The translations under genes and the position numbers were made by a program. The notes under the pieces were generated by a model. The model was not told the DNA's origin and did not search any database. It worked only from the letters and a program-made list of their open reading frames with translations. From positions 48,808 to 68,807 of the forward strand of contig JADIIX010000119.1 in the NCBI GenBank assembly GCA_027604505.1: DNA of 20,000 nt, in the 5' to 3' direction. Of the stretch, positions 1,361-18,952 are shown one piece after another. This DNA is from Gonapodya sp. JEL0774. Lineage: Eukaryota. Every line of letters starts with the position of its first letter. Positions within the stretch are counted from its first letter, which is position 1.

Positions 1361-3388
1361 CCACCGACTACAACGATTCTCGCGTCCCTTCCACCTCCTC
1401 CTACCACGATCACGTGAGTCTCACAGAGCGCGCATGCATCGGCGCCCATTTTAAACTCATAATACTTGCATTTTTGCAATGCAAACCGCCAGCAGCGCCG
1501 CGGTGCCGTCCACATCCACAACGCCTGCCCAACTCCAAGGTAAAACGTCCACGACAACAGGCCCTCCTGCAACCACCACCGGCACCACATCCCAAAGCAA
1601 AACGGACACGGCCACGACCTCTACTCTCGCCGCCACCACTATCAGAACGACCTCGCAGACGGAAACGCAGCGAACGAGTGCAAGCACCCGCTCAACGTCC
1701 ACGCTGACCATGTCTTTTACCACCAGCCAGGCTGCCACCACGTCTCAAACCACAAGCAAAACCGCTACTGTCAGCACCACTTCCTCCACCTTGACAACGT
1801 CCCCCACTACCAGCCAAACACGCACGAGCACCAGCTCTTCATCCACGCTGACGACCTCCCTGACCACCAAAACGACTTCCTCGACGCCAACTACTTCCCG
1901 GACCACCAGTCGGACAGCCACCACCCCCTCCTCTTCCACAACAACCCGAACAACAACCCAAACCTCCTCAACCGCTTCAACAACCACCACCTCGCCACTC
2001 CCGACCTACTACTCCACGTCGCCCGGTATCGTCGGATACTATCCCAACTGGGCGCTCTACTCTCGCTCGGGTGTGCGCGCCATGAGTTTCTCTGGTCTCA
2101 ACTTCGTCCTGTACGCGTTCTGGCAGCCCAACGCCGACGGGACAATCTCGTCGCTCGACACGTGGGCCGACCTGCAGACCGGCGGCAACGGGATGATGCT
2201 TCAACTCAACACGGAGGTGAAGCCCCAATACCCCGGGATGAAGACCCTCCTTGCTGTTGGGGGGTACACGCTGTCAAGCAGATTCGCGGCAATCGCGGCC
2301 TCTAAAAGTTTGAGGGACGCATTTGCGGAGTCGTGTTTGAGTGCGGTCAAGACGTACGGGTTTGACGGGATTGATATCGATTGGGAATGTGAGTGTGTTT
2401 GTGCGTGATAGGATGTTGGCGGGACACAGTTCACCACCTTCTGCTCTGCTCATCCGCACACGGCCAGTCCCCGCATCCGCAACCGAGGCGAGCAACTTTG
2501 CACTCTTAGTTGCCGCACTGCGCTCTCGTCTCGGTACAAAGTACTACATCAGTCTCGCCATGAGCGTCAACCTCTCATTCTATGGAGCGTCCCTGTTGGA
2601 CATCACCAAGTGGGCTGACTTTGTGAACCTCATGACGTACGATTTCGGCGGACCCTGGGACACGTACACATCTCTCAACGCGCCGCTGTATCACGACACA
2701 GCTACCGACCCGAATGGGGATCGAGGCAACGTCGCAGGAGTGGTGAACGCGTATAAGAGTGCTGGAGTTGCAGCGTCCAAGATGACGGTTGGCGTTGCGC
2801 TTTATGGGCATTCGGTACGAGTAAATTGCGGTGTGCGTGGGTTTGTTTTTCAGTGACTGACTTGGTTGCTTTGCGTTCTCTTTTTTACAGTGGCGAACAA
2901 ATTCGATTTCTAACGGTGGACTGTACCAAACGTGTGCCCCACAGCCAGGAGGATCTCTCTCGGCGTGCATTTCCCCGCAGGGAGACTTCCTTGACACCGT
3001 GGCCCGTACGTAGATGAGGCTGTAGGGTCAAGAATCCAAAACTCACCGTTTTCTTTTCACCACTTTGCCGTTAGCTTACACGGGAGCGTGGACGTATCTC
3101 GGAATGCGAGGTGGCGGACTTCTAGACGGCCCAGACGTGGCAGGCGCAGGGTGGAACAGGACGTATAGAACCACCACCCGTGTTCCCACCTTGATCTCAT
3201 CCGCACCTGCAAATTCCACGTCGGGAAATTATACTTTTATTTCCTATGACGACCCAATTTCAGCTGGTGAAAAGGCGGCCTTTGCAAAGGGCGCAGGACT
3301 TGGTGGAGTGATGATGTGGGAGGTGACTGTGGACTACTCGTGGGAAATGGTTACAGCCATCGTCAAGGGCTTTGGCTTGTCTCTGTGA
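111..3388 (+). CDS. GH18 chitinase with N-terminal tandem Cys/Trp modules and long Thr/Ser/Pro linker (5' end outside window)
   Basis: Hand-spliced exons 111-351, 428-441, 568-817, 928-941, 1029-1164, 1246-1259, 1335-1413, 1493-2388, 2468-2814, 2891-3005 and 3075-3388, all GT-AG and in frame. GH18 motifs: VGYYPNW, LAVGGY, catalytic FDGIDIDWE|FP (DxxDxDxE intact), DFVNLMTYDF, GVALYGHS|W, ISYDDP, LGGVMMWE. Confidence 0.93.
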
Positions 3389-4950: not shown

Positions 4951-6196
4951 CTAATCAAATGTCCTACTGACCAAATCTGCTTCCTCATCATCCTCTGGAA
5001 CGCTTGCGATCCGCTGCAGATCTTCAAGTACATGTCTGTTCGCCCCTCGAGCCAACAAGTGCTCCACCACTTCTTCGTGCCAACGGCCGCGTGCATTGAC
5101 GAGCGCTTCGTCGTCACATGCATGAATATTGGCACCACGGTCCAACAAAAGTCGCACTGCGTCCAAGCTTCCACCCAGGGCTGACACGCGAAGTGCCTCA
5201 TCTTCTCCTGCGTGAATGTCCGCGCCCCGGTCGAAGAGGAGCTCGAGAACTCCAACGTGGCGACGCTGGGCGGCAATGACGAGCGGCTCTGCATTTGTGA
5301 TGTCGCCTGCTCCACGATCCAGCAGGAGCTGTGTCAAAGTGACGTTCCCTGTGACAGCGGCACTTGCAAGGACGGAACGAGCATGAAGGTTGGCTCCCCG
5401 GTTGATGAGACACTCAGCTACCTCACTCCGACCAAAACAGACGGCATTAAAGAGTACTACATCATTGTCGAGGTGAATGTCAGCTCCATTGTCCAAAAGC
5501 AGCTCCACAACCGCCACATGTCCGCACCTGGCTGCTCCTACTGTGGCCCTAAGGCCATTCTCATTGTTCAGATCAACGTCAGTCCCAGAGTCCAAGAGAA
5601 ACTTCACCATTTCGAGGCGACCCAGCCGTGCTGCTTCATAGAGAAGCTGCTCCGGGGAGACGTGACCGTTCCTACCCAGGTCCAGAAACAGTCGAACAAC
5701 TTCAATCCTTCCATCCTGTGCCGAAAACCGGAGTGCTTTGGCTTCCTCAAATTCGTCTAGCCCACCGTTGTCTAAGAGAAGCTCGACCACCTTCATATGG
5801 CCCGCTACAGCGGGCCAAATGGAGGGCGTTTGACCCCCGAGGGCTCACCCCTGCTCGTAATAGCACCTGAAGTACAGCCAGACGTCCATCCCGTGCCAAT
5901 CGAGAAATAAGTTTGACGAGCTTTGCCTCGGACTGAACGGATGATTTCTTCAGCAGGTACGTGACAACATCTGCTCTGTATTCCTCGCTCCTTCCAGCCT
6001 CGGCGATGAGCGCTGACATCCCCGAAGGGTAGCGCCGAAGAGCTCTCTCGGCTATTCCTTCAGGGAGAGAGAAGACCGCGTAGAGCATTCGGTTGAGGGT
6101 AGGGAGGCCCAAGCGGTGGGGGAGGAAGTGACCCATTGCCTGGAGGACTTCAGTAGGAAAACTTTGCAGCTGGAACGTGGAAACGCGATCCGACAT
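4951..6196 (-). pseudogene. Intronless F-box-like N-terminus + ankyrin-repeat protein, frameshifted (or sequencing error)
   Basis: N-terminus LQSFPTEVLQAMGHFL is F-box-like. About 9-10 ankyrin repeats follow (e.g. AARCGHVAVVELLLDNGADIH, AAQRRHVGVLELLFDRGADIH). ORFs 5747-6196 and 4951-5796 join as NALHLAAVAGHMKVVELLLDNG if one base of 5812-5814 is removed. Confidence 0.85.
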
Positions 6197-10385: not shown

Positions 10386-10721
10386 TACCCCTCCCCTTAT
10401 TAACAAGTTTCTCGTTTATGCAATTTTATTGAGTTGGTAAAACTAGCGATTCAAGCTTTGTTGAGTAGAGAGAGCGCGGGGGGAGGTGGAAGGGGTGTTG
10501 GGGGTTTTGGAGAAGGTTGGGGGGGGGCATGTTTACCCGGCGTTCCTGCCAGATGTGCGAACTCGTGCCACGAACGTTGCTGTAAGCGCCCAATGTTTTT
10601 TTTTCAGAGCAATAATAAGATAAGCAAGATACACAGCGTTTTGTGAGTCATGCATGTGTGGCACAGGCTGTCAACAAGGATAGAGCGCGCATACAGATTT
10701 CTCTTCCAAGACCGAGAGCAA

Positions 10722-11843
10722 ATGGCGTCTTCATCCGCCGCCGCCGCCGCCGCCACCGCCGCTGACGAGAACCAGCCACCTCAGCGGAAGGAGCCTCGCT
10801 TCGTCCGAACCCTACAGCTCACACACAGCGCCTTCCTCTTCGCCCAGTCGATCCTCGCACCCCAAAATGCAGATTCGAACCTGGTCAGCCTCGCAAGTCT
10901 GATCAATAAACCGGAGGGATACGATCTTCAGGTCCTTGTGCACAATTTGAGCCGAACTCTGGCAACGGTGATAGAGTCTTGTTCCCGCAACCACAACATT
11001 CGAATTCTCCAGTTCGTGTTTTTCAAGCGTAAAAACATGCTACCCCGAGCCCCGGAATCAAATATTGAGCCCTGGGTAAAAGAGGTGACAACAAAACTGG
11101 CTGCAAACATCAATATTTTCCCGGGGCTGGTCATTGCGTTAGTCCCCTTCAAAGCAACTCTCCGAGCAATCCTTCGAGCGGCTGGCCATACAATACCCAA
11201 TACAGCGTCTTCAATGATAGAAATCGGAGGCTCTGGCGGCCCCGTCATTATGGAGGACACACTATGCTTGGTTGCAGCCCTCTGGACCAACAGGTCGGCC
11301 ATGTCGAGTGCATCCTCCCTCAAGGTTCTCAAAATCGAAGCATGTGGATTTCTTTGCTCATATGGCTGGCTTGCGCAAGCAGTGCGGGCCTGGTGGCGGT
11401 CCTCAGGGTCCAACTGTGACTATGTGCGAAACAGAAATGCTGTGATTCTGGTTTGGTCCAGACCTGGTCCCACGAATATTACAATAAGTGTGATAAAAGT
11501 GCACTCAACAAATCGACTTGACATTGGAGCAATATGAAATACTCCTGTCTGGAGCAATATGAAAACTGCAAGAAATCGTTTTGAGATTGCTCCAGGCTGG
11601 AGCAATATGAAAAATGCACTTTTTGACAAATCCTTCCAAGGGTCTCTATTCGACTCTATCCCACAGGCCATCTTGCTGAACCGACAGTGGCTGCTGACTG
11701 TAGATATCCCTCTGGGCGTAGAGTACGTTGAAGCGGAAGAAATCCGCCAGTTCGGCGGCCCAGCTAAGATTCTCATCTGGGACCCCTTCTGGAAAGTGGT
11801 TTATCTGCGTTCAGCAGGACCAGACAACACTTGTGGCAGATGA
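10722..11843 (+). CDS. Unknown globular domain ORF interrupted by a 144-nt repeat insertion; possibly the first exon(s) of the kinase-LRR gene
   Basis: ORFs 10650-11537 and 11559-11843 are in the same frame. The only stop between them (11535-11537) lies within the inserted repeat 11487-11630. Likely start is MASSSAAAAAA at 10722. No family recognised. Confidence 0.55.
11487..11631 (+). repeat. Dispersed single unit of the CTGGAGCAATATGAAA repeat family
   Basis: Near-identical to sequence at 16988-17065 and 16857-16976. Contains the hairpin attgctccag-g-ctggagcaat (11586-11606). Confidence 0.9.
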
Positions 11844-11866
11844 GGTTGAATACCAGTGATGTGTAG

Positions 11867-14800
11867 TGCTGGGCACTCTCGAGAGAAGCCTTCCCGACGA
11901 GCATCGGTATGTTGTTGGAGACACCGACCCGTTTGGGGTGGGCCTCAGCAAGCTGTGGTCACAAACACACTCTCCCGGTAGAATCCCCAACCACCAATTT
12001 CATCCTCGATGCTCATGTCCGCTGACTCCCCCAGCTCTCCTCCTGTGGAAAACGCGGTCGATGGGTCACCTCACCCCCATGATGATGCCACAGAACGGAC
12101 TCTTGACCCGCCGACCACTCCACATGTGCCTCCATTCACGCTTGCGGAACTAGAGAATCGCTGTGGGATGGGTATTTCTGAATTCCTGAACGCCGTCGCC
12201 ATGTCTGGCGACAATGGCCCCCTGAAAGTGAGCAATGTCTGCAGCTGTTTACCATTCAAAATCCTGAGTGACTGTGGTTCTAATTGCATAGCTAGCCAAA
12301 TGGCTCATAGATGAACGTGGCATATTTCAAGTACTGGATGGGCCAGGTGCGTCAAGGCTACTAGAACTTCTTGCCGTCGACCATCACAAAGCCAGTACTC
12401 TGTACTCTCATTCCGACCAAGCGTGTCTTGCTCTAACACTCAATCATCCTGATAGACCATGGCAGAATGCGTTTCTCGAACAGCGCCTCTCGTAGATATA
12501 CCAACAACGCCACCAACACATGTTCAGATGTCAACCGCAAAGAAACCAGATTGGGAGATCCCACCTGGAGAAGTGGAGTATGCGGAGAAAAAGGTACTCG
12601 GCAAAGGAGGATACGGTTCAGTATGCGAAGGCGTGTACAGGAAGCAGACTCCTGTGGCAGTCAAGAAAGTTGCAATCTCTGGGACCTATTTGCTGGAGGT
12701 CTGTGTTAGTGCCTCACAGCATGGTCATGTTTTGTTGTTTTTAAATTGAGTTTGCTCCAGGACTATCGGAACGAAGTTGAAGTGTGGTACAGGCTTCGAC
12801 ACCCCAATGTTCTGCAGCTCCTTGGAGTCATCCTAGACAGTGATCATGTCCTTTTCATATCTCCTCTGATGTCCAAAGGAGATTGCGCGAACTATTTGAC
12901 ATCATTTTCCGATGGAAATGAGCGTCAATGTAAAGCCGTTGCCTTGGTATGTTGTGGTTGAGGCAATGCGCTCGGGTTGCGTTTAAACTCACAGTCGAAC
13001 ACAGCTTCGAGATATTGCCATTGGGATGGACGCTCTTCACGCCAAAGGCGTCGTTCATACAGACCTTAAACCTGCTAATGTTCTCGTGAATGATTTGGGT
13101 ATTGGTGTCATCACAGATTTTGGCTTTGCAAAGAACTCGCCACTTGACGACAATGACCTTCTAGTGACCGGATCAGGGAAACTTAGGGTTGAAGCCACAA
13201 AAATCCCATACCATACGTTGTTCCGTATGCCAAACTCACAGGAGCGTCCAGGGACTGCTTTCTACATGCCACCAGAACGCCTAGAACGACGGGGCACAAC
13301 TAAGCAAGGCGATGTTTATGCATTTGGAATCATGATTGTCACGGTGAGTGAGACGGCAATCGATTACGGGTGAGCGAGCTCTAAAGTTACCCCTTCTTGC
13401 TGCGCCAGATGTGGACAGATGAAACAGCCTACCCAGTGTCATCCACGGGAATATTTGATGATATTTGCTTCAAAAACCTCAGGCCAAGTATCCCAGACGA
13501 TATGCCCGAAGAGCTGGTGTCACTCATGAAAAGTTGCTGGGATGAAGATCCATCAAAGCGACCTAACTTCACCCAGATTGCAGAGACGATGAAGAGCATT
13601 GCGTTGGTAGTTCTGAGTAATTGTCGGCAGAAACGGCACACACTGATCTGCATCTATAGGAATCAGATCAGCGACCTTCTGGGACAACATCTGGCCCGTC
13701 TTTACTTTGTACAGAATCCTTCCGAACATACAATGAAAATGCAAGGTAAAGCCTCAGTACCACAGTTTTGAGTGCTGTGTTTTAAAAGGAGTTTTTCTCT
13801 AGACGGACAATTCCAAAGACTGAGGTTCGAGTACTTGCCAGAAGTACTCAAGACCAACACTGTGCTGACGAGTCTGAATCTTTACGGTGAGTGTCGTGAA
13901 TGTGTGTTTGCAAGCCCGAATCAAGGTCACATGGTCCCTCTTGCCACTGGTGCCACTGGTCCCGCCAAATGAACAGACAACAAGATTGGAGCTGACGGTG
14001 CCAAGGCACTGGCCGAGGCGCTCAAGAACAACACTGCTCTGACGAGTTTGGACCTGGGTGGTGAGTGTCGAGAATGTGTGTTTGCAAGCCTGAATCAAGG
14101 TCACATGGTCCCGCGAAATGAACAGACAACGAGATTGGTGCTAACGGTGCCAAGGCGCTGGCCGAGGCGCTCAAGACCAACACTGCGCTGACGAGTTTGA
14201 ACCTGGGTGGTGAGTGTCGTGAATGTGTGTTTGCAAGCCCGAGGCAAATTCACACGGTCTCTCTTGCCACTGGTGCCACTGGTGCCACGAAATGAACAGT
14301 CAACAAGACTGGCGCTGACGGTGCTACGGCGCTGGCCGAGGCGCTCAAGACCAACACTGCGCTGACGAGTCTTGACCTGACCAGTGAGTGTCGTGAATGT
14401 GTGTTTGCAAGCCCGAATCAAGGTCACATGGTCCCTCTTGCCACTGGTGCCACTGGTCCCGNNNNNNNNNNNNNNNNNNNNNNNNNNNNNNNNNNNNNNN
14501 NNNNNNNNNNNNNNNNNNNNNNNNNNNNNNNNNNNNNNNNNNNNNNNNNNNNNNNNNNCCGCGAAATGAACAGGGAACGGGATTGACGCTGACAGTGCCA
14601 AAGCACTGGCCGAGGCGCTCAAGACCAACACTGCGCTGACGAGTCTTAACCTGTCATGTGAGTGTCGTGAATGTGTGTATGCAAGCCCGAATCAAGGTCA
14701 CATGGTTTGTCTTGCCTCTGGTGCCACTGATCCCACGAAATGAACAGTCAACAGTATTGGCGCTGACGGTGCGAAGGCGCTGGCCGAGGCACTCAAGACC

Positions 14801-16387
14801 AACACTGCGCTAACGAGTCTGAATCTTTACGGTGAGTGTCGTGAATGTATGTTTGCAAGGCCGAATCAAGGTCACATTGTCCCTCTTGCCACTGTTGCCA
14901 CTGGTCCCGCGAAATGAACAGGGAACAAGATTGAAGATGACGGTGCCAAGGCGCTGACCGAGGTGCTCAAGACCAACACTGCGCTGACAACTTTGAATCT
15001 GCAATGTGAGTGTCGTGAATGTGTGTTTGCAAGGCCGAATCAAGGTCACATGGTCCCTCTTGCCACTGGTGCCCCTGGTCCCGCGAAATGAACAGATAAC
15101 GCGATTGGTTCTGACGGTGCCAAGGCGCTGGCCGAGGCGCTCAAGACCAACACTGCGCTGACAACTTTGAATGTGCAATGTGAGTGTCGTGAATGTGTGT
15201 TTGCAAGCCTGAATCAAGGTCACATGGTCCCTCTTGCCACTGGTGCCCCTGGTCCCGCAAAATGAACAGATAACGCGATTGGTTCTGACGGTGCCAAGGC
15301 GCTGGCCGAGGCGCTCAAGATCAACACTGTGCTGACGAGTCTCAATCTCGCAGGTGAGTGTCGTGAATGTGTGTTTGCAAGGCCGAATCAAGGTCACATG
15401 GTCCCTCTTGCCACTGGTGCCCCTGGTCCCGTGAAATGAACAGCCAACGCGATTGGTTCTGACGGTGCCAAGGCACTGGCCGAGGCACTCAAGACCAACA
15501 CTGCGTTAACGAGTCTGAATCTTTACGGTGAGTGTCGTGAATGTGTGTTTGCAAGCCTGAATCAAGGTCACATGGTCTCTCTTGCCACTGGTCCCCCTGG
15601 TCCCGCGAAATGAACAGATAACGCGATTGGTTCTGACGGTGCCAAGGCGCTGGCCGATGCGCTCAAGACCAACACTGTGCTGACGAGTCTGAATCTCGCA
15701 GGTGAGTGTCGTGAATGTGTGTTTGCAAGGCCGAATCAAGGTCACATGGTCCCTCTTGCCACTGGTCCCCCTGGTCCCGCGAAATGAACAGGGAACAAGA
15801 TTGAAGATGACGGTGCCAAGGCACTGGCCCAGGCACTCAAGACCAACACTGCGCTAACGAGTCTGAATCTTTACGGTGAGTGTCGTGAATGTGTGTTTGC
15901 AAGCCTGAATCAAGGTCACATGGTCCCTCTTGCCACTGGTGCCACTGGTCCCGCGAAATGAACAGGGAACAAGATTGAAGATGACGGTGCCAAGGCGCTG
16001 GCCGAGGCGCTCAAGACCAACACCGCACTGACAATTTTGAATCTGCAATGTGAGTGTCGTGAATGTGTGTTTGCAAGCCCGAATCAAGGTCATATGGTCC
16101 CTCTTGCCACTGGTGCCCCTGGTCCCGCGAAATGAACAGATAACGCGATTGGTTCTGACGGTGCCAAGGCGCTGGCCGAGGCGCTCAAGACCAACACTGT
16201 GCTGACGAGTCTGAATCTCGCAGGTGAGTGTCGTGAATGTGTGTATGCAAGCCCGAATCAAGGTCACATGGTCCCTCTTGCCACTGGTGCCACTTGTCCC
16301 GCGAAATGAGCAGGGAACGAGATTGGTGCTGACGGTGCCAAGGCACTCAAAGACCTTGCAAATTCCAGCTGTGCAATTAATCTGTGA
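11867..16387 (+). CDS. TKL-type (non-RD) protein kinase fused to C-terminal RI-like/NLRC3-like 28-aa LRR array
   Basis: Kinase exons ~12466-12698, 12761-12946, 13005-13343 and 13409-13602 carry LGKGGYGSV, VAVK, EVEVW..LRHPNVL, HTDLKPANVL, DFG, GTAFYMPPE, DVYAFG and CW..DP..RP. Linker exon 13660-13745, then fourteen visible 84-nt LRR exons from 13803 to 16223 (e.g. NKIGADGAKALAEALKNNTALTSLDLG) and terminal exon 16314-16387. Upstream exons 11867-11906, 12035-12227 and 12292-12347 are tentative. Confidence 0.9.
13803..16350 (+). repeat. 174-bp tandem array = 84-nt LRR exon + 90-nt intron
   Basis: Exons start at 13803, 13977, 14126, 14300, [gap], 14574, 14748, 14922, 15096, 15270, 15444, 15618, 15792, 15966, 16140 and 16314. 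Every intron begins gtgagtgtcg and ends aaatgaacag (last one aaatgagcag). Confidence 0.97.
14462..14558. other. Assembly gap (97 N) inside the LRR array
   Basis: Run of N flanked on both sides by the same intron position (...tggtcccg / ccgcgaaatgaacag). Confidence 0.99.
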
Positions 16388-16854
16388 ACCTCATAGTCTG
16401 TCTCTTTTGATATGTTTGGGGCAAATAGGAAAATTTGTATGCATCACGAAGTGTCATGCACCCCCCACCCGTCATGAACTGAAAAAGATTTGAAATAGCC
16501 AGCGCAGTATTGAGCGTTTCCCTTTTTTTGAAGTGAGTACATTGCGATTGATTATTTGGAAATCACATTGATCGGCCATCGATCGCAGAGACAGAAGAAA
16601 TTGGGCGCAGCCTCGATGAACACGATCGGCAGAAGTATGAAATGCATATTGCGGAATTGCTCTTCCAAAAATGGATGCAGCAAGCAGACCTGATCTTATT
16701 CTGCTGCGGTCATGTTGCACCGCCGCGGCGCTGTCAGTTGATCGAGGGCTGTGCATCCTGATTTATTCCGTGATTTAATCGATTCAAAAAGTCTTTGAGA
16801 TTGGTATTTTGTCAAGTCTGGCTCCGCTGCAACTTCTCTCATCGCACATCTCCT

Positions 16855-17115
16855 TGAAATACTCCTGGCTGGAGCAATATGAAAACTGCAAGAAATCATT
16901 TTGAGATTGCTCCAGGCTGGAGCAGTATGAAGTATTCCTGTCTGGAGCAATATGAAAAATGCACTTTTTGACAAATGATGATATTTTAGTGTGATAAAAG
17001 TGCACTCAACAAATCGACTTGAAATTGGAGCAATATGAAATACTCCTGGCTGGAGCAATATGAAAAATGCACTTCTTGATGAATGATGATATTCAAGTGT
17101 GATAAATGTGCACTC
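16855..17115 (+). repeat. Complex AT-rich tandem repeat with TGGAGCAATATGAAA sub-repeats and hairpin
   Basis: Five copies of (c/t)tggagca(a/g)tatgaa, two copies of tgatgatatt..agtgtgataaa.gtgcactca, and the inverted repeat tgctccag-g-ctggagca. Confidence 0.85.
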
Positions 17116-17301
17116 ATCCGTCTTGAAACGTTGAGTTGAATCAATGTTGCACTTTTGATTGATCTCAAATTGATTAAATCATTGCAATATGACATGCATT
17201 ATATCTTCATCTATCAAAAGTGCACCTTTTCACTTAAAATCACGCATGGTGCAAAAATAACACACACCGTTTTTCAGCTGACCTGTACTCTCATTCCCAC
17301 A

Positions 17302-17635
17302 TTTTGTTCACTTTTGTTTGTTTATTCTACTCATCTCTCTGTCGATATCTTCATCTATCAATACTGCTCTGTTTCAAATCTTCTTCACTTCAAGTCATCC
17401 ATAGTGCAAAAAATAAGACTCCCCATTTTTCAGCAAAGCTGGAATCGCTTTCCCGGGTTTTGTTCATTTTTGTTTGTTTATTCTACTCATCTCTCTGTCG
17501 ATATCTTCATCTATCAATACTTCTCTGTTTCAAATCTTGTTGACTTCAACTCATCCATAGTGCAAAAAGTAAGACTCCCCGTTTTTCAGCAAAGCTGTAA
17601 TCGCTTTCCCGGGTTTTGTTCACTTTTGTTTGTTT
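17302..17635 (+). repeat. 156-bp direct tandem repeat (2 full units + partial third)
   Basis: Units start at 17302, 17458 and 17614 (ttttgttca.ttttgtttgttt...cgctttcccggg) and differ by few substitutions. Confidence 0.95.
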
Positions 17636-17679
17636 GCACTAATGGTCCATATAAACCTAGTGGAGAGTCCTCCACCTTA

Positions 17680-18952
17680 ATGCCAAAACAATCACAGCCT
17701 CAGAGAAAGGAGGCCAGACAACAATGGGAGAAGGCCAAAAAACTGGACCAAACCACAGTCGCACCAACAAAGGAATCTACAACCTCAGTCAGTTGAAAGA
17801 TTTGAACGGAAGAGAACCCAGATGACCGTTTGCTCCAAGCATTAAAAGAACTACTTTGTAAATATGAAGACCTCACAAAACAGGAGCAAGCAAAAAGGGA
17901 ACAATTATTAAAACGAGAGCAAGCGAACACGTAACAATTATTAAAGCAGGAACAAGCAAAAAGGGAACTATTGTTAAAACAGGAGCAAGCGAAAAGTGAA
18001 CAATTCGAACGATAGATTGGAATTCGAGAAAAAACAATAGAAGGAGATATAAAAACACAGCTTCAACGTTTTTGGGATGCCAATATTATAGCGTTTCCAA
18101 TATCAATCTACTATGATAAATTCACACGTCGCATTTGCGGAAATGAACCTACAATCGATGAGTTGTACGATCTCACAATCGACAGCACGAAACAGATGGA
18201 TATTTCAGGTTCTCAAGGAGTTGGAGTAATAACAGGACCAACATCCGAAATATTCATGCTCAAAGTTTTGGATATGGTGTGGTGGACAAAGCTCTTGACA
18301 AGAAGGAAATATACAATCCCAATGACTGCCACGTCACGAAGTGATGATGGTCTCTACACCTATTATTTCAGAACAAACGATTAGACACCTTATTTGAGAC
18401 GTGACCTTCAATTATTTGACAAAATTGCCCAAACCAGTCCGTATTGGAGAGTTGTCCTTGCACCTCCATCCTATGGTGTTGTGTCAGATATGTTTGAAAT
18501 AAAGGACCAAAAATGGTTACCTGGTCGAACGATACAGGATGGGATATCACCCCCCCCTCAATGGTTGTTACAAGCAGTTCACATTCATGAAGACAAATTG
18601 GAAGATGAGGAAGAACATATAAAACTCCGAATGTACAGAAATGTCTGAGGAACATCATAGAGTAGAGCACGATGTAATGAGGAAATTTGGTTTGCTATGT
18701 TGCTAAGATGAAATTGATGAGTCTGATCATAGAGCATATCATATCAGACTGAGGAAAAGTCGAGACACTATTCACTGCTGCGATTATAAGTTTGAAGAAG
18801 ATATTGCTGCTGACGATAAACAAAACCCCATCATGGTAAATGATACTGACAAGGGAGGAGAAGTAACTGAAAGCAAGGACCACGCAGTACAGATACAAGG
18901 TGAAGTATCATCAGGAGTACACGATGAAGGATCCGCTACTAGGGGTGTGTGA
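17680..18952 (+). pseudogene. Decayed intronless AT-rich ORF with 11-aa coiled-coil repeat; unknown family (possible mobile/viral cargo)
   Basis: One frame from ATG 17680 runs through ORFs 18163 and 18394 with isolated stops at 17794, 17803, 17932, 18013, 18382 and 18646. A 33-nt repeat QEQAKREQLLK occurs about 3.7 times at 17881-18003. An acidic tail continues in another frame to 18952. Confidence 0.65.

What the first reader, a model, noticed from the sequence alone, without database searches (positions are those of the whole stretch)
14748..16350. LRR half-modules are combinatorially re-assorted along the array
Seen within exons: NKIEDD pairs with LNLQ (14922, 15966) and LNLY (15792). NAIGSD pairs with LNVQ (15096), LNLA (15270, 15618, 16140) and LNLY (15444). 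Seen across introns: LY is followed by GNKIED (twice) or DNAIGS, and LA by ANAIGS, GNKIED or GNEIGA. A higher-order block LY|KIED-LQ|AIGS occurs at 14748-15179 and again at 15792-16223. Inference: crossovers or gene conversion happen both in the conserved exon core and in the intron, giving mosaics rather than simple duplications.
Basis: seen in the sequence. Interest (0 to 1): 0.75.

Follow-up and report, generated by a model that had tools for sequence, protein, structure and literature searches.

The report
Reshuffled repeat halves in chytrid kinase
In a chytrid fungus, a kinase gene likely continues into at least fourteen near-identical leucine-rich repeats whose variable halves occur in mixed combinations, likely because ordinary recombination between the copies swaps them while selection keeps them different, a pattern already known from fungal and algal recognition genes.

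Summary
The pairings are real. Fourteen 84-nt phase-1 exons (RI-type LRRs) alternate with near-identical introns, mostly 90 nt, behind a TKL-like kinase whose protein record is named Gonapodya. Recombination is strong (PHI p about 1e-4 or lower). 5' halves, 3' halves and introns are uncorrelated, and the exon mosaics survive re-assembly at k>=55.

But 'mosaics rather than simple duplications' is a false contrast. In-register duplications and deletions make hybrids, and six of them reproduce the order of half-types; SNP-level mixing also needs short conversions. The 'higher-order block' is narrower (14787-15155) and weak.

Diversity is 0.27 at the exon ends, which encode the strand and loop, against 0.058 in the core and 0.046 in introns. 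Neutral simulations never gave this ratio (0 of 853); selection for diversity did under one of three mutation/conversion regimes.

This is the Podospora HNWD regime (homogenised repeats with hypervariable sites), here in an exon-per-LRR kinase gene, with an intron splitting a variable codon. No reads were available, and an N gap leaves unit number and order unconfirmed.

The parts
12528..13603 (+). TKL-like protein kinase coding exons (12528-12698, 12761-12946, 13005-13343, 13409-13603); GxGxxG, VAVK, HTDLK, DFG, PPE motifs
   Evidence: Pfam PK_Tyr_Ser-Thr/Pkinase; P0001, named by its source as a partial Gonapodya sp. protein, is 100% identical and kinase-only
13604..13802 (+). Linker: frame stays open from the kinase to a phase-1 donor at 13746; 57-nt GT-AG intron 13746-13802. 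The kinase-LRR join is inferred.
   Evidence: ORF 13385-13771; spliced model without stops; intron text
13803..13886 (+). First, divergent 84-nt LRR exon; array-like from position 44; Y-type 3' half with a short A-type patch at positions 61-65
13977..14383 (+). Three 84-nt LRR exons left of the gap (13977, 14126, 14300); intron 14061-14125 is 65 nt, 25 nt shorter than the others
14462..14558 (.). Assembly gap of 97 N inside an intron. Edges are at intron positions 78 and 76, so the true gap is -3 + n x 174 and the number of missing units is unknown.
14574..16313 (+). Ten gap-free 174-bp units (84-nt phase-1 exon + 90-nt intron): GIDA-LS, SIGA-LY, KIED-LQ, AIGS-VQ, AIGS-LA, AIGS-LY, AIGS-LA, KIED-LY, KIED-LQ, AIGS-LA. 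Each intron carries an in-frame TGA if retained.
   Evidence: stop visible
14787..15155 (+).
16314..16387 (+). Terminal exon: array-like 5' half to position 34, then a unique tail and stop

Best explanation
This is a tandem array of one-LRR exons and near-identical introns, likely joined to the upstream kinase, in which ordinary in-register unequal crossover and short gene conversion likely homogenise the helix-coding exon core and the intron, while selection likely keeps the exposed strand and loop residues different, so that two islands of variation persist and are re-assorted.

Shown: the anatomy, the recombination signal, the uneven diversity, and that an intron splits a variable codon (D, V, F, G, Y, A seen).

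Inferred: (1) misaligned copies recombine anywhere in the 174-bp register. (2) Exchanges that end in the 42-bp core or the 90-bp intron survive and make new 5'/3' combinations. (3) Exchanges that erase a variable codon are selected against, so linked synonymous sites stay divergent. (4) The protein is probably a cytosolic sensor whose LRR surface binds a changing ligand and regulates the kinase. Both array edges lie in the exon core (positions 44 and 34), so the copied unit was probably 3' half + intron + 5' half, one whole variable motif.
For: PHI and four gametes; Mantel incongruence. For three mosaic exons, two parents cut mismatches from 9-10 to 1-4, with 9-18 bp breakpoint windows in the core. 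Six-event history with a 3:3 core/intron split. Short patch in the first exon.

Diversity in 9 units: exon 1-17 0.299, core 0.058, exon 60-84 0.258, intron 0.046. pN at codons 2, 5, 27 is 0.585 vs pS 0.124; core pN is 0.036. Neutral arrays reached ends/intron >=6 in 0 of 853 kept (of 1502 run) and exon/intron >=3.6 in 1 of 853. With selection for diversity and a low mutation rate the ratio was 3.0-10.3 (6 of 10 at >=5.9) and 3.4-6.1 (8 runs), with intron pi 0.04-0.045. Without selection it was at most 1.9 in 10 runs.

A single-sequence model of homologue P0005 (pLDDT about 70-88 over the repeats) puts the core on the helix and the ends on strand and loop (ticket, result). Ends vary more than core in 13 of 13 homologous arrays. 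Chimeric repeats from deletion, unequal crossover and an 88-bp conversion were seen experimentally in Podospora hnwd genes (PMC2873952, passages).
Against: Selection runs at a higher mutation rate failed (0 of 38 reached ratio 3), and so did selection with mismatch-sensitive conversion (18 runs, ratio at most 1.0); the fit needed tuning. The fitting runs gave synonymous diversity of 0.14-0.17 at four 3' sites against 0.49 observed. Intron positions 7-17 are invariant beside the most variable codon, so hitch-hiking there is lopsided. The 'ends' and selected codons were chosen after seeing the data. Over seven exposed codons pN/pS is only 0.87 (13 exons) or 1.36 (9 exons). At protein level only 1 of 13 homologous arrays showed four gametes and 2 of 13 a PHI-like p<0.05. 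The database model stops at the kinase. There is one haplotype, with a gap in the array.
Confidence: 0.65

Rival explanations
1. Assembly or allele mixing created part of the mosaic and the unit order.
For: There is an N gap inside the array. At k=55-63 the same k-mers allow 708 and 80 paths and 4 different sets of across-intron junctions; at k=77 two orders remain. Short-read assemblies of Podospora WD40 arrays lost, added and made chimeric repeats (PMC12222747, passages). Ploidy is unknown.
Against: The longest exact repeat is 106 bp. The set of within-exon pairings is the same in all 708 paths at k=55 and above (3 sets at k=41, search cut at 20,001 paths). Intron pairings are unique from k=77 and order from k=99. 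The 5' and 3' diagnostic sites lie 53-77 bp apart, within one read. The test assumes the assembled k-mers are real and complete.
Confidence: 0.12
2. Neutral concerted evolution with only relaxed constraint at the exposed residues, or one past burst of copying with the introns as passengers.
For: The mosaic alone needs no selection. The numbers of junction types (6 and 6) sit at the mode of random shuffles.
Against: Neutral and purifying-only runs keep exon ends about as variable as introns (medians 0.9-1.1), against 6.0 observed. Synonymous pS at codons 21, 22, 24, 26 is 0.59 vs intron pi 0.046, which one recent burst would not give. A burst model was not itself simulated.
Confidence: 0.08
3. 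The contrast arises because the introns are themselves constrained, or because divergent exon halves were imported by conversion from LRR exons elsewhere in the genome.
For: High synonymous divergence stops abruptly at the donor site. Intergenic exchange is reported for Ectocarpus ROCO LRRs (PMC3341825, results) and suggested for Podospora NWD genes (PMC13449251, passage).
Against: The introns show no special fold (z +2.35 to -0.98 in 6 of 6). One intron lost 25 nt and two differ from the rest by 8-12 of 90 bases. No near-identical paralogue turned up among 61 LRR hits. The genome could not be searched.
Confidence: 0.08
4. A dedicated diversifier: somatic or hot-spot recombination, or exon skipping that uses the split codon to make new residues.
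For: All exons are frame-symmetric. The 15 possible donor-acceptor codons give 12 amino acids and no stop. Exon skipping is reported for brown algal ROCO LRRs (PMC11378527, passages) and human NLRs (PMC6642158, passages).
Against: Breakpoints are spread over core and intron. There are no inverted repeats of 25 bp or more in 11400-17700, and no inverted or orphan exons were seen in the introns. Avoiding a stop has about a 0.29 chance anyway (hand count, C(13,5)/C(16,5)).
Confidence: 0.07

Closest known systems
Podospora HNWD/HET-E, -D, -R WD40 repeats with high internal conservation (PMC2873952, PMC12222747, PMC13449251, PMC4986451; passages read, plus one section of PMC13449251)
   Same: Repeats 80-100% identical with a few hypervariable codons; chimeric repeats from deletion, unequal crossover and short conversion; hard to assemble from short reads.
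   Different: RI-type LRR, not WD40; kinase instead of HET-NACHT; a 90-bp intron in nearly every repeat, cutting the variable motif; chytrid, not ascomycete; no function or allele series known.
Ectocarpus/brown algal ROCO and LRR-kinase genes with one LRR per exon (PMC3341825, parts 2-5 of 7 read; PMC11378527, passages)
   Same: One repeat per frame-symmetric exon, intragenic recombination, selection on concave-face residues, LRR fused to a signalling enzyme.
   Different: 72-nt, 24-residue, phase-2 exons there; 84-nt, 28-residue, phase-1 here. Inverted or inactivated intronic exons there, none seen here. Zambounis found no shuffling in Ectocarpus LRR-kinases. Here the breakpoints also fall inside exons.
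Human NOD/NLRC genes, one 28-residue RI-type LRR per exon (PMC6642158, passages)
   Same: Same repeat class and exon length; frame-preserving exons with the border at a fixed place near the strand.
   Different: No NACHT domain here; repeats and introns here are recently homogenised; the paper places the border within the beta-sheet, while here it is just after the last L of the strand.
Iterated homogenised introns of spider silk genes, MaSp2 and Flag (PMC9779670, passages)
   Same: Near-identical introns delimit the repeat units and are proposed to aid unequal crossover.
   Different: Structural protein, homogenisation without hypervariable binding residues.
Mortierellaceae RNI-like proteins and Gonapodya kinase-LRR proteins P0082, P0152
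   Same: Same 28-residue motif (58-88% identity to the query repeat among the Mortierellaceae hits) with the same variable positions; kinase + LRR_6 architecture occurs in G. prolifera.
   Different: No kinase Pfam domain is listed for the Mortierellaceae hits; the G. prolifera kinase-LRR repeats are visibly divergent, not homogenised.

Membership tests
RI-like LRR (LRR_6) | 28-residue LxxLxLxxNxIxxxG...L repeat with strand-loop-helix | tested here: met
   Alignment; weak Pfam LRR_6 hits below cut-off on 2 of 4 single full exons; profile hits to 15 PDB sequences incl. DRC5 and tropomodulin; homologue model
HIC hypervariable repeat regime (HNWD-like) | Repeat identity above 80-85% | tested here: met
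   86-91% in-register DNA identity; 86% mean column identity
HIC hypervariable repeat regime (HNWD-like) | Chimeric repeats from recombination | tested here: met
HIC hypervariable repeat regime (HNWD-like) | A few codons under diversifying selection | tested here: inconclusive
   pN 0.585 vs pS 0.124 at three post-hoc codons; 0.87-1.36 over seven exposed codons; simulations mixed
HIC hypervariable repeat regime (HNWD-like) | Length and order polymorphism between isolates | not testable with these tools
Fungal NLR/STAND receptor | Central NACHT or NB-ARC domain | tested here: not met
   Only kinase and LRR between 12459 and 16387; the kinase-LRR linker is about 50 codons
Ectocarpus-type exon shuffling | Equal-length frame-symmetric LRR exons | tested here: met
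   14 exons of 84 nt, phase 1
Ectocarpus-type exon shuffling | Inverted or inactivated spare exons in introns; intergenic donors | tested here: not met
   No spare exons or inverted repeats in the array; intergenic donors untestable without the genome
Alternatively spliced LRR receptor | Exon-skipping isoforms in RNA | not testable with these tools
   needs transcript reads of this gene

The most novel reading that the evidence does not exclude
A chytrid cytosolic LRR-kinase immune receptor with its own diversity generator: a homogenised intron kept inside the hypervariable strand-loop motif serves as a recombination spacer, and its phase-1 split codon makes new residues by DNA exchange or exon skipping fast enough to vary within a clone. 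It would be a fungal counterpart of VLR-like LRR diversification in a kingdom whose NLRs were reported to lack LRRs.
Probability: 0.08. Interest if true: 0.8.

Novelty: new member of a known kind. Interest (0 to 1): 0.35.

Why it matters
The re-assortment itself is what any homogenised tandem array does and has been shown experimentally in Podospora. The useful part is a candidate recognition protein in an early-diverging fungus: a kinase with LRRs that evolve like immune-receptor sensors. A survey of fungal NLRs found no LRR sensors (PMC4986451, passages). The introns also give a built-in near-neutral yardstick, which intronless HIC repeats lack, for separating homogenisation from selection within one gene. 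If somatic variation or exon skipping were shown, interest would rise sharply.

Tried and rejected
No whole genome is held. No sequencing run was listed, and no RNA holder, so no reads were laid.

An intron motif found 0 metagenome matches. An exon motif found 28 loci, 5 with two or more LRR units, none with six or more and none a close relative. The look-up of earlier findings by place and by sequence was empty.

Intron RNA structure: rejected. Mismatch-sensitive conversion as the cause of the pattern: rejected, introns diverged instead (36 runs). 'Q is always followed by AIGS' (3 of 3) was not treated as a rule; junction-type counts match shuffles. CpG decay explains 8 of 30 derived alleles in core and intron, not the pattern.

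Kinase searches found kinase + RI-type LRR in 2 of 170 proteins scanned, both G. prolifera. The spliced LRR domain was not folded or searched; a homologue stood in, so the structural mapping is indirect.

Paper searches: Gonapodya + leucine-rich repeat gave 2 unrelated listings; two five-term searches on LRR exons with conversion gave 0; some searches gave the papers cited or nothing specific to this gene. Subscription journals are not covered and no supplements were opened, so absence from print is not established.
Full report
Anatomy. The finding lies in a spliced eukaryotic gene on the + strand. Four exons at 12528-13603 encode a TKL-like kinase; a protein record named Gonapodya sp. matches them exactly but ends with the kinase and is marked partial. 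The frame stays open to a phase-1 donor at 13746, and a spliced model through the LRR exons has no stop before 16385 on either side of the gap, so the join is likely but not shown by RNA. Fourteen 84-nt phase-1 exons follow, then a terminal exon. The introns are 90 nt (one is 65, one holds the gap) and carry an in-frame stop. A run of 97 N interrupts the array; its edges overlap by 3 bases in register, so an unknown whole number of units may be missing. The repeat is the 28-residue RI type. In a model of homologue P0005 the conserved middle is the helix and the ends are strand and loop. The intron cuts the codon after LxLx.

Observation. In the nine units, 134 of 276 informative site pairs are incompatible, none within 10 bp and about 70% beyond 50 bp; PHI p is 5e-5 to 1e-4. 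Exons 15096, 15444 and 15792 differ from their nearest single neighbour by 9, 9 and 10 bases, but from a two-parent model by 1, 4 and 2. The higher-order block shrinks to 14787-15155 (12 of 369 mismatches). It is the best such window, yet an equally long repeat of labels occurs in 36% of shuffles, and its introns are not closer than average. It may be an old duplication, since eroded.

Artefact check. No reads could be laid, so I asked which orders the assembled k-mers allow. The longest exact repeat is 106 bp. Within-exon pairings are fixed from k=55, across-intron pairings from k=77 and the order from k=99. The exon mosaics are therefore hard to blame on a graph assembler; order and copy number are less safe. 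Short-read assemblies did create chimeric repeats in Podospora (PMC12222747, passages), and mixed alleles cannot be excluded.

Mechanism of the mosaic. A duplication or deletion between misaligned copies makes one hybrid junction unless it breaks at a fixed phase. From an ancestor holding each half-type once, six plain events give the observed order, or five if conversion is allowed (label level, one assumed ancestor). Three new junctions are in the core and three in the intron. Whole-unit duplication gave PHI p<0.01 in 0 of 100 simulated arrays and random-phase events in 51 of 88 (480 run, filtered to similar diversity). The observed incompatibility of 0.49 needed short conversion: 0 of 150 without it, 45 of 150 and 76 of 150 with mostly or only 50-bp tracts. 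The first exon carries a patch of another half-type at positions 61-65. Both array edges are in the exon core, so the copied unit is probably one intron with its two flanking half-exons.

Why halves exist. Diversity is 0.299 and 0.258 at the exon ends, 0.058 in the core and 0.046 in introns. Neutral arrays never reached the sixfold ends/intron ratio (0 of 853), nor did purifying selection alone. Selection for diversity at six codons reproduced it at low mutation (ratios 3.0-10.3 and 3.4-6.1). It failed at higher mutation (0 of 38) and with mismatch-sensitive conversion, and it under-predicted synonymous divergence (0.14-0.17 vs 0.49). pN exceeds pS at codons 2, 5 and 27 (0.585 vs 0.124), but these were picked after the fact. 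I take selection plus homogenisation as the likeliest cause; intron constraint or import from paralogues stays open. The introns show no special fold. The split codon could give 12 residues and no stop from the 15 possible joins, but nothing shows skipping.

Function. Not tested. The closest kinase relatives in Gonapodya carry Sel1 repeats in the same position, and two G. prolifera proteins have kinase + LRR_6, so this kinase family takes different repeat domains. The catalytic loop reads HTD, not HRD; the link between non-RD kinases and recognition receptors is recalled, not checked. No membrane segment is apparent in the translations (no predictor run). A cytosolic sensor-kinase is my inference.

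Comparison. It works like the Podospora HNWD repeats: near-identical units, a few hypervariable codons, and chimeras from deletion, unequal crossover and short conversion (PMC2873952 passages; PMC13449251 passages and one section). It is not an NLR, as there is no NACHT or NB-ARC. One LRR per exon is known from brown algal ROCO genes (PMC3341825 parts 2-5; PMC11378527 passages) and human NOD/NLRC genes (PMC6642158 passages); homogenised iterated introns from silk genes (PMC9779670 passages). Thirteen homologous arrays vary at the same positions, though only 1 of 13 showed four gametes at protein level (13 of 61 hits had eight or more matching units). Metagenome locus L028 also has look-alike introns in such an array, at a different position. 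Two unchecked earlier notes of this scan describe similar fungal LRR genes.

Verdict. Observation confirmed, interpretation partly supported, new member of a known kind. Interest 0.35.

Noticed in passing
window 11487-11611 and 16855-17116: The kinase-LRR gene is bracketed by copies of one AT-rich repeat, 96% identical over 77-84 bp; possibly a mobile-element remnant or dispersed minisatellite.
   Followed up: no
window 17229-17635 and 17877-18005: A 156-bp tandem repeat (2.6 copies) and a 33-bp tandem repeat (3.9 copies) in the AT-rich right end, before an ORF at 18016-18384 with only a sub-threshold TraU hit.
   Followed up: no
window 14061-14125: One intron is 25 nt shorter, the loss lying between two short direct repeats, consistent with slippage or microhomology repair.
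   Followed up: partly
proteins P0110, P0108, P0198, P0152, P0082: Gonapodya TKL-like kinases carry different C-terminal repeats: Sel1 in the closest relatives (49% and 41% identity), LRR_6 in others.
   Followed up: partly
window 1455-3388 (+): GH18 chitinase-like gene with a long Ser/Thr-rich stretch before the catalytic domain.
   Followed up: no
window 4951-6196 (-): Ankyrin-repeat ORF of 297 residues with an adjoining ORF in another frame at 5747-6196; may be one spliced or frameshifted gene.
   Followed up: no
window 10647-11537 (+): 296-residue intron-free ORF with no Pfam match, ending inside the left flanking repeat.
   Followed up: no
L028:330-1500: RI-type LRR array of an unnamed eukaryote with four look-alike introns in only some units, at a phase-2 position about two codons upstream of the one here (read by eye).
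   Followed up: partly
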